In this document: one piece after another, positions 14,231 through 26,400 of the stretch
Numbering within the stretch: the first letter of the stretch is position 1
Layout of the letters: each line of letters begins with the position of its first letter
Source: Heptranchias perlo
Taxonomy: Eukaryota
Assembly (NCBI RefSeq): GCF_035084215.1
Contig: NW_027139217.1
Coordinates: forward strand, 372,001-436,000
Length of the DNA stretch: 64,000 nucleotides
Direction of reading: 5' to 3'
Translations under genes and position numbers: made by a program
The notes under the pieces: generated by a model
What the model saw: only the letters and a program-made list of their open reading frames with translations
Told to the model about the DNA's origin: nothing
Databases searched by the model: none

Positions 14231-14796
14231 ATTGTATTAAACCAGGAGATGTCCCTGGTCACTCAGTCACCTCCTCACTGATTGGATTAAACCAGTAGAT
14301 GTTCTTGTCACTCAGTCACCTCCTCACTGATTGGATTAAACCAGTAGATGTCCCTGGTCACTCAGACACCTCCTCACTGATTGGATTAAACCAGTAGATG
14401 TCCCTGGTCACTCAGTCACCTCCTCACTGATTGGATTAAACCAGTAGATGTCCCTGGTCACTCAGTCACCTCCTCACTGATTGGATTAAACCAGGAGATG
14501 TCCCTGGTCACTCAGTCACCTCCTCACTGATTGGATTAAACCAGTCGATGTCCCTGGTCACTCAGTCACCTCCTCACTGATTGGATTAAACCAGTAGATG
14601 TTCTGGTCACTCAGACACCTCCTCACTGATTGGATTAAACCATGATGTTCCACACCACCTGAGGAAGGGGGAAGCCTCCGAAAGCTTGTGGGATTAAAAA
14701 TAAAATTGTTGGACTATAACTTGGTGTTGTAAAATTGTTTGCATGTATTAAACCAGTCGATGTTCCTGGTCACTCAGTCACCTCCTGATTGATTGG
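14228..14796. repeat. 50-bp CCAAT-containing minisatellite, ~9 copies, interrupted at ~14641-14745
   Basis: Unit TTGGATTAAACCAGTAGATGTCCCTGGTCACTCAGTCACCTCCTCACTGA. Confidence 0.93.
14655..14691 (+). ncRNA. Minimal type I hammerhead ribozyme motif in a Penelope-like terminal fragment (~14652-14742)
   Basis: CCAC-CTGAGGA-A-GGGGG-AAG-CCTCC-GAAA-GCT-T-GTGG; the 3' flank matches the element at 27837-27932. Confidence 0.7.
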
Positions 14797-20604: not shown

Positions 20605-21634
20605 TGAAGGGATTCGCAAAATTTCACATGTCCCCTCCCCGAAGATTTATTGGAGTTATTAAAGAAACCCTGGTGTGACTGTGTTTTAAAAAATCCAGGG
20701 TCTTTCAAAATGGCTGCGGTCAGACACATGTCCAAGGGCCTGCAGCATTCGAAATTGGATTCTCTGACAGCTTGGCAGGCTCCGTGTTTCAGACAGGTTT
20801 CTTTGAACAATGCAGATGCATTCACGCCCTGAGGCAAGCCATCAACGTTGCTGTCCTACACATCAAAATTCGAGCAGGAGTAATCCCAGGACTAAGGTGA
20901 CCCATTAAGGAACATTCGGAACAATGAAAAGCAGTTATGGAACAGATCAGTACAGGTACCAGCCGTTAATGGAAATGGGCCAAGATCGGGGCCCTATTGT
21001 CTTACGTTTTCAGCCCAAATCGGACAATGGAGCAAACTGATGAGGCGCGAAAATAACCTATTACTGGGAGGGTATAACTGGGGCGTCCCAGAACCTCTCT
21101 CTCTCTTTCTCTTCACCTCGGCCCGGCGTCCTGCTCGCCTGCTAGCAACCAAGAAGGAAGGCCGTCCAGTAAACATCGGAACCACGTGTCGAAGGCAGCA
21201 GCAGGGCACAGGGGCCAGGCCTTTTCATCTGTTTCACGGCGAGCATTATTTTTTTCTGGCCGTCACAAGACAACCTAGCTAGGTGTAAGGGTGGGAGTTA
21301 AAGGGGGATTGCTGAAATTGTGATTTTAGAATTTTCCCTCGATGTGTCCGTTTCTTTCACCCCGTTAAGTGTAAGACTGTATTGCATCCAAAGCGATTCC
21401 TTTTATCTTCTGTATAATACTGTTTACCTTGTAGTTTTAGTTTTCTTATTAATAAACATTGGTTTTCCTTGCACCAATCCACTGGTCTGTTTGTCTGTCC
21501 TTATTACCACTCGATAAGTCCTGAGCTCAGAATCAGGAAGGGGAAAGTGATTCGAAACCGCACAGCGGGCAGGGCAGCTCAGGAAAACATAACTGGCTGA
21601 CCTACAATAAGCCCCTGAAACAAAACCCCTTACA
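20605..21634 (+). repeat. 5' LTR
   Basis: TGAAGGGATTC...CCCCTTACA; TATAA ~21074 and AATAAA 21451; PBS follows. Confidence 0.8.
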
Positions 21635-21637
21635 GAA

Positions 21638-23473
21638 ATGGCGAGCCAGGCAGGAGGTCAGACGAAAGTGTGTAACAAGGCAGACAGTGGTGCGGAGGAG
21701 GAATCCGCAATGGAGGAAGGGTTGTCTGCCTATGTGTGCAGCAAGATAAATATCGCAAAAAAATGGGTGGGCGATATGTTAAAGGCTGAGCGTCCCATAG
21801 ATGCAGCCATCCAGTGGACAGCAAGTAAACAGTATAAGAAGGGTATCAAGAAGGCGGTCTGGCTCTTGTGTTTTAAAAAGCAGGTCTTGGTACTAGACCG
21901 TGCTGTAGCAGCGCGAGCAGTCAAGATTAAGCAGTTGACCCGAGAGCTGCAGGAAAAGACAGCAGCGGAAGAGAAAGGGGGAGCGGCGCTCCAGGCAATA
22001 AACCAAGAAAGGGCGCAGATGGCAAGGGACCACCAGGCAAAGGTAGAGCGCCTGGAATACCAGATCGCTGAGCTCAAAAGTAGCGCCAGAGGTAGAATGG
22101 AACACCTGGAATACCAGGTCAGAGAGGCGAGAGGCAGTGAGGTTAGGTTAATGGATAAGATCCACAGCCTCACGCAAGAACGAAAAGAGCAGGAGGAGAA
22201 AGTAGGCGAGGTAAAGGCAGCCTATAAGCTGGCCTACGCCCAGAGGTTTGAAGACGCAGATCATCGCCCCTGCAGGCAAGAACTAGAACGTTTGGGCATG
22301 GCCTTAGCGAGGGCGAAGGGCATGGTATGCCTCATTCGCCCAAAGGCGGGCCAGTCGGATTTTACCGGCAACCCAAGCAGGGAAGTCCCACAGGCAGCTC
22401 CCAGAACGACACTGGTTAGGGAACCAGAGGCTTCACGGCCACCACCCATAGCCCCGAGTTTTCAGGAGGTCTGGCAGCAAGGGTGGGTGGAGGATGAAGC
22501 ATTAGGGGAGACCCAGCAAGCCCTGGTAGATGGCCGATGGCGAGGACCTAGGGGCCATCCAGAACCAGTTTGTAGTGCCACATGGCACCCCACAGCTCAG
22601 GGCCATGGTTCGCCATATCCCTAAGCTTACAGTGAAGGGAGACCCCTCTCTACACTTCCGTGAGATAGAGCAGGCAGCGTGCGTTAATGACTGCGATGAA
22701 GCAGAACAAGCAAAAATGCTGCTGTTTTCTCTGGGGGGTGACCTCCTCCAAACCTTATCAGATGAGTGCAAAAGGAGGCAGAAAGATTATGAGGAGTTAA
22801 AGGGTGAGATATTGGAGGCCATGGGACTAAATGACGGGACTCCGTTCACCCGGGTGGGAAAAACGGTACAGCTCCCCGGGGAGTCCCCACAGGCGTTCAA
22901 AGACAGGCTGTGGCCAGTCTACCGGAGCGCATGCCGGGGAATGCCAGGGCAGGAATTCCTGAACAGAGATCAATCGGCCCACTGGCTCCGCTGTCTCATG
23001 GCAAACTGCCTGCCCCAAATTCGAACTTGAGCTGCGGCCTGGTTTTACCCCCGTAACCCCCAGACCACCGAGGAAACGGTGATCCGCCAGCTCACGATAG
23101 CATTTAAAAATATCAGGGGTATCAAGACGCCCCAACCCAAGGGGAAAGTCCACGAGGTTAAACCAGGGGCCCAGCATAAAAGGGAATGGCACCAGGAAGG
23201 GAATCGTCCCGCCCAGGCGAAGTTAAACTGCTCTGGGTGCGGGAAGGATGGCCACTGGCACAAAGATTGTAAAAACCCCTGGAAGGACACCAAGGGAAAG
23301 AATCCCACCGCCCCAGCCCAAAAGGCAGCGACGGGGGAGGCAGAGACAGGAATTGCCCCCGCCGCCATGGAGTCATTTTTTGAGGCCATGCGATCTTTTA
23401 TGGTCGGCCAGGGAAAAATAGCAGCCACTGTGTGGTAGCTCCCTCAGCCCCCCCTGCCGACGCCCCGCTATGA
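21638..23473 (+). pseudogene. gag: gag (coiled coil, capsid, CCHC knuckle, PSAP tail) with 2 frameshifts and 1 stop
   Basis: QLPGESPQAFKDRL capsid motif and CSGCGKDGHWHKDC; frameshifts at ~22531 and ~23431, stop at 23028-23030. Confidence 0.85.
21639..21656 (+). other. Primer binding site, tRNA-Arg(ACG)
   Basis: TGGCGAGCCAGGCAGGAG, 17/18 match to the complement of the vertebrate tRNA-Arg(ACG) 3' end as I recall it (TGGCGAGCCAGCCAGGAG). Confidence 0.85.
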
Positions 23474-26400
23474 CTAGAGCCCACACAGCCTGTCTACCTG
23501 TGTGCTCTCAGGTATGATGGATGGAAGAGACCGCTCATGCAGATGGAGGTAGAGAAGGTTAAAGGGACTTATCTGCTGGATACGGGGGCATCATGCACCG
23601 TGATCCACGCAGCTAATCCCACCACCTCACCTCTGTCTAGCAGAGTTCCATACGTTCTATCGGGGATCACTGGCAAGGAACAGGCGGGAACATTCTCCAA
23701 GCCGCTCTCAATCCGCCTGGGCCCACTCCAAACCAAGTGGACGTGTGTCCTGGCGAGGTGGGAAGCGGAGGGAGGAAAGGTGATCCTAGGGACCGACTTC
23801 ATCGTGGGCCACGGGATCCTCGTGGATCTCCGCAACCACTGCCTTTGTGGAGCCGAGACGGGTGAGGAGAATGGCGTGTTCGTTATCACAGGAAAAGAAG
23901 GGAAGGGAACCCTGTGTACTGTGAAGCCGAAAGGAGGTTACGACCTCGGGCTCATGATGGAGGGTGTCCCGGAGGAATTTAAAGCATTCGTACAGGCTCA
24001 CCGGGCTGCGTTCGCCACGCACAAACACGACTGCGGGAGAGACACCGGGTTTGAGGTCAGGGTAGACGGAGACCCCATGGCCCGGCCCCAGAAGCAGTAT
24101 AACTTTCCTAGAGAAGCAGAGCCCGATATGGAGATGGCCATATCCTCGTTGGTGCAGCAGGGAGTGCTGAGGCCCAGAGCCACCCATGTTAATTCTCCGC
24201 TTTGGCCGGTCAAGAAACCGGACAATTCGTGGAGAGCCACGGTGGACTATCGGGTGCTCAACAGCAATATCCCCGCGTGTGGCCCCACAGTGGCAGCAGT
24301 TGCCGACCTCATCGGAAGCATTCCAGCATCCGCGACTACGTTCACGGTGCTGGATATTTCGAATGGGTTTTGGTCGATCCCCTTGAGGAGGGAAGACCAG
24401 TATAAGTTCGCCTTTACTTTTAAAGGGCAACAGTATACTTGGAACTGTTTGCCACAAGGTTTTCATAACAGCCCCAGCATCTTTCACCAGTGCATGGCAA
24501 GTAGTTTAAAGGAATTTAGCCAGCCCAGGCAATTGGTGCAGTATGTAGACGACCTGCTCTTGTTTACCGACTCAGTCGGGGAGCATGGTCCGCTACTGGC
24601 CGAATTGCTGGAGCTGCTGCAGAGTAAAGGTTTTAAAGTGAACCCAAAGAAAGCGCAGATCGGCCAGCAGGAGGTGAAATTCCTGGGCCTGACCGTCCGC
24701 GCAGGGGAACGAGCCATAGACAAGGCTCGGAGGGAAGTGGTCCAAGAGCTACCGGTCCCCAGTACTGTGAGGGGTGTGAGGTCGTTCTTAGGACTAACGG
24801 GGTAATGCAGAGATTTTATTGAGGATTATGCGGCCACGGCAGCCCCTCTGCTCCAACTCCTACACAAGGGAGTGGAGTGGTCTTGGGATGAGGGGTGCCA
24901 GGCAGCATTTGTCAGCCTCAAGAAAGATCTGCAGACCGCACCAGCTCTAGGGGCCACAGATGGAGGGAAAGAGTTCTTCCTGGAGGTAGCAGCCAGCGGA
25001 GACAGCCTGAGTGCTGTGCTGCTCCAAGAGCGGCATGGCAAGCTGAGACCGGTGGTCTGCTCCTCCAGGATACTCACAGATGTGGAGAAGAGTTACTCCA
25101 ATTGTGACAGGCACCTCTTGGCCACATATTGGGCTGTGAAAAGATCGCTGATCTTCACAGGCACCTCTCCCATCACCCTCCTCACCCATCACACGCCCAC
25201 CCAAATGCTCCTGGACGGGAGAATCAAGGATGGGACAGTGAGCAGTGCCCGCATTGCTCGCTGGACCCTGCTTCTCTCACAGATGGACCTGAAAGTAAAA
25301 GGGCTCTGCGAGCCAAAGCTTGCAGCTAACCTGGTATATCCTGGAACAGCCCACCGGTGTTCCATAGAAGGGGTTTGGGAAGTGAACATAGGTTTACGGG
25401 CCGGGATACACCCCACAGGCCGTGAAATCTATGTGGATGGCTCCAGCACAGTATCTGCTGGTGAGCGACTCACGGGGTGTGGAGTTTATGACCCAGCGGC
25501 AGACCTTGCCCTGGCAATTAAGCTCCCCAGCACCATGAGCGCCCAGCAGGCTGAACTGTCCGCGGCAGTGTACGTGGTTACACACCCCGAGATCTTCCCC
25601 ACCCCATACACGATTTGCTCAGACAGCATGTTCACATGCAATTCGTGTACGGAGTACCTGGCCATCTGGTCCTGCCGCGGATACACCTCCGCTGACGGGA
25701 GACCCCTCACAGTGAAACCCTTGCTGGAGAAAATCTTAGCAGCAGTGGGGGAGGAAGGGGAGGTTTTCATCCATAAGGTGAAAGCCCATTCCTCCGCAGA
25801 ACCCCGGAGTGAGGGCAACTGACAGGCCGACTTGCTAGCTAAGGAGGGTGCCCGCACAGGCATTTTCTGGGACCCATATGGGTCCCGTCCTATAGCAGCA
25901 GTCACGGGTAGGAATGGGACACAGGGGAGTGCAGGGGTAGCTTTAACCCCGGACCTTAAGACGGTCCAAACCCAAGACCCCGTCCTCAAGGCAGTCCTCA
26001 GTGCAGTGGCAGAAGGGAAAAGGGTAGAGGGCCCTTACAGCACAGCAGCCCTCTCTGTAGAGGAGGGCCTGCTGTTTAAGGGAGAGCAATGGGTAGTACC
26101 GCAGCAGCACAGGAGGGAATTCCTTCAACTGGCCCATGAGGGTCCAGGAGCGGGGCATCCCGGGCCTGAGACCACCTGGCAGCGGGTGGAACAGGCAGGA
26201 TGGTGACCAGGACTCAGGGAAGATGTCCGCGAGTTCTGTGCCAGCTGTCTGGTGTGTGCTGCTAACATCCCTGACCCCCACAAAAGGTATGTACCTATGG
26301 GACACATCAGGAGGGTAGAGGGACCATGGCAGTCGATCCAGATCGACTACATCGGGCCCCTACCCACCGCCCAGGGAGGCTATAAGTACTGCCTAGTCCT

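What the first reader, a model, noticed from the sequence alone, without database searches (positions are those of the whole stretch)
23425..23510. gag-pol junction is a UGA-CUAG readthrough signal with an 8-nt spacer and hairpin, preceded by a PSAP late-domain motif
Seen in sequence: removing one duplicated TG (ACTGTGTGGTAGCT, ~23431) makes Gag end in VVAPSAPPADAPL-TGA(23471-23473). That TGA is in frame with pro-pol and is followed by CTAG. After 8 nt, CACACAG (23482-23488) pairs with CTGTGTG (23498-23504) and can extend through AGAG/CTCT. Known: UGA-CUA(G) is the leaky stop context of alphaviruses and vertebrate readthrough genes such as AQP4 and LDHB, whereas gamma/epsilon retroviruses read through UAG; P(T/S)AP recruits TSG101. 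Inference: Pol was made by UGA readthrough, and an env-less Gag retained an ESCRT budding motif.
Basis: partly seen in the sequence, partly recalled or inferred. Interest (0 to 1): 0.7.

Follow-up and report, generated by a model that had tools for sequence, protein, structure and literature searches.

The report
Leaky UGA stop in fish retrovirus
An endogenous retrovirus family in this vertebrate genome keeps its coat gene and enzyme gene in one reading frame, split by one UGA stop in a context known to be leaky in alphaviruses, so the enzymes were likely made by ribosomes reading through that stop, a new variant of a known retroviral trick.

Summary
The junction is real and family-wide. The window holds a decayed endogenous retrovirus whose nearest reference virus is snakehead retrovirus (SnRV). 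All 123 distinct related copies placed have a stop 34 codons before the protease motif (TGA in 122), against about 0.1% at other codons. Two subfamilies keep UGA-CUA(G); a family at 60% RT identity has UGA-CGG. These are the two type II leaky contexts. The 7-bp hairpin is weak alone but is kept through one compensatory change, and a stronger ~145-nt predicted rod follows it. Corrections: this copy's frameshift is a short deletion, not a duplicated TG; the family is not env-less, so PSAP is an ordinary likely late domain. In-frame gag-pol stops, UGA included, are already described in fish and frog retroviruses, and PSAP with TGA in XtERV-S. The type II context is not in the retrovirus passages I read of a 2026 review. 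Five published lokiretrovirus consensus sequences also show gag-UGA-CUA, unremarked in that paper's main text. Readthrough was not measured. This scan noted gag-UGA-CUAG-pol before, in copia and DIRS elements of other genomes.

The parts
20605..21635 (+). 5' LTR, subfamily A1 type
   Evidence: 91% identical to the LTR after the polypurine tract of sibling L138
21639..21656 (+). primer-binding site, 17 of 18 identical to that of SnRV (tRNA-Arg type, recalled)
   Evidence: a 15-nt piece of the SnRV-type site has 178 exact matches in the genome, several about 1.7 kb upstream of sibling junctions
21638..23473 (+). gag: SnRV-like N-terminal part, one CCHC knuckle; broken in this copy near 22600, 23030 and 23430
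   Evidence: hits to SnRV Gag E 2e-5 and 2e-4
23441..23452 (+). PSAP, likely late (budding) domain near the Gag C-terminus
   Evidence: PSAP in 29 of 31 A1 and 53 of 55 A2 copies; family B has YPxL here in 36 of 37
23471..23477 (+). gag stop UGA plus CUAG, type II readthrough context
23482..23504 (+). 7-bp hairpin after an 8-nt spacer
   Evidence: all 7 pairs possible in 31 of 31 A1 and 53 of 55 A2 copies; one compensatory C-G/A-U change and two wobble changes
23516..23661 (+). predicted ~145-nt rod-like stem-loop inside the protease coding region
23680..23684 (+). distal 5-nt arm complementary to 23489-23493 (long-range basal helix, or pairing with the hairpin loop)
   Evidence: 5 of 5 pairs in 29 of 29 A1 and 45 of 46 A2 copies scored; invariant, so no covariation
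23474..27304 (+). pro-pol (protease, RT, tether, RNase H, integrase) with four premature stops; switches from A1-like to A2-like near 24800
27400..29378 (+). polypurine tract and 3' LTR, subfamily A2 type, interrupted by insertions; no env between pol and the LTR in this copy

Best explanation
This is the gag-pol junction of an SnRV-related endogenous retrovirus family, where Pol was likely made as a Gag-Pol fusion by occasional ribosomal readthrough of one in-frame UGA. Shown: one stop, in frame, at the same codon in three lineages, followed by CUA(G) in families A1 and A2 and by CGG in family B. Inferred: most ribosomes stop and release Gag; a few percent insert an amino acid and continue into protease-RT-RNase H-integrase. 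In family A the leak is likely helped by 3' RNA structure: a 7-bp hairpin 8 nt after the stop and a predicted ~145-nt rod (about even odds). PSAP is likely an ordinary ESCRT late domain of an enveloped virus (about 0.65). The window copy is a dead, env-lacking A1/A2 mosaic.
For: Stop fixed in 123 of 123 distinct copies, TGA in 122, against about 0.1% at other codons. Gag knuckle and protease motif are in one frame in 26 of 31, 52 of 55 and 34 of 37 copies. The codons before the stop differ among lineages, yet the next codon is CTA or CGG, rare in this pol (12 and 13 codons; CTA is 12 of 119 Leu codons). These are the two type II hexamers (PMC13517186). No Met lies near the stop: codon 24 in family A, codon 17 in 23 of 37 B copies. 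SnRV has a UAG at the equivalent place. Structure: z -3.5 for 240 nt; 0 of 300 synonymous recodings fold as well, in A1 and in A2; 39 pairs shared by independent A1 and A2 folds, the highest of 12 colinear windows. An 8-nt spacer before a stem is the known geometry (PMC3159437).
Against: No measurement of readthrough. Copies were the best-scoring hits (40 of 418, 40 of 330, about 100 of about 2500 candidates) and are not independent: in effect three lineages. The whole element folds well (mean z -2.0), and 2 of 56 windows fold better than the junction window. Only 2 of 57 modelled pairs show compensatory change, no more than shuffles (387 of 500). Synonymous identity just after the stop (9 of 16, 9 of 17) is not above the rest of pol. 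Family B shows no such structure (z above 0), although UGA-CGG needs one in VEEV and CTFV. In Tca2 a gag-UGA-pol junction fragment did not direct readthrough in yeast reporters (PMC2194720 abstract).
Confidence: 0.8

Rival explanations
1. Pol is made apart from Gag, from a spliced or internally promoted mRNA, as in foamy viruses.
For: The RT's best solved-structure hits are foamy. A Met at codon 24 after the stop is kept in 29 of 31 A1 and 54 of 55 A2 copies. A1 has a CAG|GT site after a pyrimidine-rich stretch in 28 of 31 copies. Tca2 has a minor junction promoter (PMC2194720 abstract).
Against: That Met is only about 11 codons before the catalytic DTG, too close for a whole protease (established knowledge of retroviral proteases). 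The CAG|GT site is absent from 55 of 55 A2 and 37 of 37 B copies. This route does not explain a shared frame and type II contexts in both families.
Confidence: 0.1
2. The UGA is recoded at RNA level (A-to-I editing to UGG) or as selenocysteine.
For: Some folds pair bases next to the stop.
Against: Those outer pairs are not conserved. The conserved feature is the known ribosomal context. No SECIS search was run.
Confidence: 0.04
3. The stop is an inherited lesion in non-autonomous copies whose active parent had a fused gag-pol frame.
For: Nine lokiretrovirus consensus sequences are annotated as fused Gag-Pol. A coelacanth homolog, P0100, is annotated as one protein across the junction (its DNA was not seen).
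Against: The stop is at the same codon in lineages at 79% nucleotide (A1/A2) and 60% RT identity (A/B), with pol frames open for up to 1420 codons in some copies. No sense codon in 123 copies.
Confidence: 0.04

Closest known systems
Snakehead retrovirus (SnRV) and SnRV-related ERVs (clade Huo, PMC6001957; shark CmiERV lineage I, PMC4422223)
   Same: Best RT match among 29 reference loci (46%); primer site 17 of 18 identical; one CCHC knuckle; gag and pol in one frame split by a stop
   Different: SnRV has UAG-GGC (type III-like) and no PSAP, PPxY or YPxL match in Gag; env shows no BLAST match; no supported clade joins them
XtERV-S, class III ERV of Xenopus tropicalis (PMC8278194)
   Same: gag-TGA-pol in frame, predicted suppression; PSAP near the Gag C-terminus; env present
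   Different: No zinc knuckle, has dUTPase and a tRNA-Ser primer site; its stop context was not visible to me
Gammaretrovirus (MoMLV) gag-pol readthrough
   Same: In-frame stop, 8-nt spacer before a stem; family B's UGA-CGG-UGU-CAG resembles the UAG-GGG-UGU-CAG of reference L099
   Different: UAG, purine-rich spacer and a compact H-type pseudoknot
Alphavirus and coltivirus type II readthrough (Sindbis UGA-CUA; VEEV and CTFV UGA-CGG; PMC3159437, PMC13517186)
   Same: Same two hexamers; spacer then an extended 3' stem
   Different: Unrelated viruses; their structures have experimental support, this one is predicted
Lokiretroviruses (PMC7947760)
   Same: Tether plus RNase H; five consensus sequences show gag-UGA-CUA before the protease region
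   Different: RT is of another lineage; none reported in 6 cartilaginous-fish genomes

Membership tests
Retroviridae (ERV) | PR-RT-tether-RNase H-IN order | tested here: met
Retroviridae (ERV) | RT groups with retroviruses, apart from gypsy and lokiretrovirus | tested here: met
   (split 97/97)
Retroviridae (ERV) | env gene | tested here: met
   At family level: 635-763-codon frames after pol in L138, L139, L140 and L155 with furin site and hydrophobic segments; no Pfam or PDB hit; absent from the window copy
SnRV-like ERVs | RT clade with SnRV | tested here: inconclusive
   Best reference hit, but the tree leaves both in a weakly resolved basal grade
SnRV-like ERVs | SnRV-type primer site, one CCHC, in-frame gag-pol stop | tested here: met
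Lokiretrovirus | RT in the loki clade (PFGYxNSP signature) | tested here: not met
   Window has LPQGFHNSP; Loki-Aro-like P0133 groups apart
Spumaretrovirinae | RT in the foamy clade; Gag without zinc knuckle; pol not in frame with gag | tested here: not met
Type II stop-codon readthrough site | UGA-CUA or UGA-CGG, conserved and in frame | tested here: met
Type II stop-codon readthrough site | conserved 3' structure after an 8-12 nt spacer | tested here: inconclusive
   Supported in family A by energy and sharing, weak covariation, none found in family B
Type II stop-codon readthrough site | measured readthrough | not testable with these tools
   needs a reporter assay or ribosome profiling
P(T/S)AP late domain | motif kept near the Gag C-terminus | tested here: met
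   82 of 86 family A copies
P(T/S)AP late domain | binds TSG101 and promotes release | not tested
   no binding test run

The most novel reading that the evidence does not exclude
Alphavirus-style type II readthrough (UGA-CUA or UGA-CGG) is an overlooked gag-pol strategy of deep-branching fish retroviruses, used by this SnRV-related clade and by part of the lokiretroviruses. In family A it is driven by a bipartite element: a hairpin 8 nt after the stop whose loop pairs about 190 nt downstream, across a 145-nt rod, an enlarged counterpart of the MLV pseudoknot.
Probability: 0.3. Interest if true: 0.65.

Novelty: new variant of a known kind. Interest (0 to 1): 0.45.

Why it matters
Readthrough has been measured only in gammaretroviruses among retroviruses; for epsilon and unclassified fish retroviruses the cis-signals are described as unclear (PMC13517186 passages). 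This family offers natural variants (CUAG, CUAA, CGG; with and without a predicted structure) for a direct test of how context and structure set the Gag to Gag-Pol ratio near the base of the retrovirus tree. It also warns that such in-frame UGAs are easily annotated as decay or as separate genes. The mechanism itself is known, so the advance is moderate.

Tried and rejected
Lokiretrovirus membership was my first lead and was rejected. Foamy membership was rejected. The 'duplicated TG' was rejected. The hairpin as a stand-alone stable fold was not supported. The metagenome scan gave 3 distant loci and the viral scans only reference retroviruses, so no junction DNA of this clade from named hosts. 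Expression: no RNA holder listed; contigs cannot show splicing or editing. In one search no variant row fell in 23471-23477 among the 40 rows shown, but 36 rows were not shown, so the stop's identity in other organisms stays open. ARAGORN found no tRNA in 4 loci with the primer-site motif, so the tRNA-Arg assignment is recalled, not shown. The env-like protein had no Pfam or PDB match and no Atlas answer. A search for a third A subfamily returned only A1 and A2. The original SnRV paper was not held. One locus (L201) could not be placed and 26 duplicates were merged before counting. The careful tree left out 50 of the 81 rows of the quick tree.

Full report
Observation. In this copy the upstream gag frame ends at 23438. 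Sibling matches to a 311-nt query are mostly 315 nt and contigs from three other runs are also longer near 23430, so the break is a short deletion, not a duplicated dinucleotide.

The element. The window lies in a 3.25-Gb genome rich in LINEs; earlier notes on this genome call it a shark, which I did not test. The element spans about 20605-29378: LTR, primer site, gag, pro-pol with protease, RT, tether, RNase H and integrase, polypurine tract, LTR. It is decayed (three gag breaks, four stops in pol) and is a mosaic of two subfamilies. Among 29 reference loci its RT is closest to L105 (46%). L105 is SnRV: its RT matches the SnRV row of a published alignment and its UAG-GGC junction matches PMC13517186. 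The primer site differs from SnRV's at 1 of 18 bases. A 31-row tree separates it from gypsy plus a lokiretrovirus-like RT (97/97) and from foamy viruses, and groups it with family B and amphibian and coelacanth Pol proteins (93/93), but does not join it to SnRV with strong support. SnRV-related ERVs in a cartilaginous fish are already described (PMC4422223).

The stop across copies. Of 150 loci, 1 could not be placed and 123 were distinct. A1 (includes the window copy): TGA 31 of 31, CTAG 25, CTAA 6. A2 (79% identical over 240 nt): TGA 55 of 55, CTAG 44. Family B (60% RT identity): stop 37 of 37, TGA-CGG 32. The stop is 34 codons before the protease motif in all three. The Gag knuckle and protease motif share a frame in 112 of 123 copies. 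Stops at other codons nearby occur in 27 of 32664 positions. CTA and CGG are rare in this pol and are the two type II readthrough hexamers (PMC13517186). Caveat: these are top-scoring hits and amount to three independent lineages.

RNA structure. The 7-bp hairpin alone is unremarkable (z -0.37). It can form fully in 84 of 86 family A copies, with one compensatory change and two wobble changes between A1 and A2; the proposed outer extension is not kept. Longer folds show more: z -3.5 for 240 nt, about -3 to -5 in A1 and -8 in A2 for +10 to +219. The signal is a rod at 23516-23661, which beats 300 of 300 synonymous recodings in each subfamily and shares the most pairs of 12 windows. A 5-nt arm at 23680-23684 can pair with 23489-23493, either as a long-range basal helix or with the hairpin loop. 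Against: 2 of 56 windows of the element fold better; compensatory pairs are 2 of 57, no more than shuffles; synonymous identity is not raised; family B has no such signal. A role in readthrough is inferred from position only (PMC3159437).

PSAP and env. PSAP is kept in 82 of 86 family A copies; family B has YPxL at the same place in 36 of 37. Of 20 downstream regions fetched, 4 hold 635-763-codon frames with env hallmarks; several others are shortened or env-less like the window. So the motif belongs to an enveloped virus family; binding to TSG101 is inferred from established retrovirology.

Mechanism. Most likely (0.8), ribosomes read through the UGA at a low rate to give Gag-Pol. Rivals: a separate pol mRNA (0.1; the only conserved Met is too near the active site and the splice-like site is A1-only), editing or selenocysteine (0.04), inherited lesion (0.04). 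Tca2 shows that a gag-UGA-pol junction fragment can fail in reporters.

Known and new. In-frame gag-pol stops are standard in gamma, epsilon and SnRV-like retroviruses. UGA is reported for SSSV, ZFERV and a toad ERV with other contexts, and XtERV-S has TGA plus PSAP. The type II context was listed only for alpha-, colti- and triatoviruses in the passages read. Searches for ERV + gag-pol + UGA + readthrough + fish, readthrough + gag + pol + UGA + retrotransposon and lokiretrovirus + readthrough (0 papers) showed no report of it in this clade; subscription papers are not covered. Five lokiretrovirus consensus sequences also have gag-UGA-CUA. Earlier notes of this scan report similar junctions in copia and DIRS elements (unchecked).

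What I saw of each paper. PMC7947760: parts 1-2 of 4, term search, supplement passages (300 of 318 pages read by the tool; figures not seen). PMC13517186, PMC8278194, PMC2717909, PMC12193657, PMC3159437, PMC6001957 and bioRxiv 10.1101/2024.03.25.586437: passages. PMC4422223: part 1 of 2. PMC2194720: abstract. The XtERV-S stop context sits in a figure I could not see and could already be type II.

Verdict. Real, conserved and best explained by UGA readthrough; a new variant of a known kind; interest 0.45.

Noticed in passing
PMC7947760 supplement, Dataset S1: Five lokiretrovirus consensus sequences (Ofa, Pyo, Sau, Bsp, one unnamed) end gag with UGA-CUA, four of them UGA-CUAGG; read by eye, four run in frame to the protease motif and Bsp slips frame later. 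The main text has no mention of readthrough. Nine others are annotated as fused; the rest were not examined.
   Followed up: partly
window 20605-29378: The copy is a mosaic: A1-type 5' LTR, gag, protease and RT; A2-type sequence from about 24800 and an A2-type 3' LTR. L137 and L141 also pair an A1 junction with an A2-like integrase.
   Followed up: partly
L033:1400-1500 and other family B loci: Family B Gag ends in LYPELQ before its UGA-CGG and has PPPAY upstream of the knuckle: other late-domain types in the slot where family A has PSAP.
   Followed up: partly
L139:1203-3491, L155:962-3166: Env-like glycoproteins of families A and B are 26% identical to each other but match neither SnRV env, Pfam nor PDB.
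   Followed up: partly
window 24286-24495 and 26786-26995: Two other pol windows fold more strongly than the junction window (z -7.7 and -8.7); function not examined.
   Followed up: no
window 21638-21656: The first ATG of the gag frame overlaps the primer-binding site; a second ATG lies at 21710.
   Followed up: no
window 27629-27932: A 96-nt perfect inverted repeat enclosing short tandem repeats sits in the 3' LTR; similar arm at 14693-14754.
   Followed up: no
window about 38800-47000: Large 16-nt tandem repeat array, over 450 overlapping matches.
   Followed up: no
window 30549-31415: ORF pieces that look like a Harbinger-type DDE transposase (by eye; label recalled).
   Followed up: no
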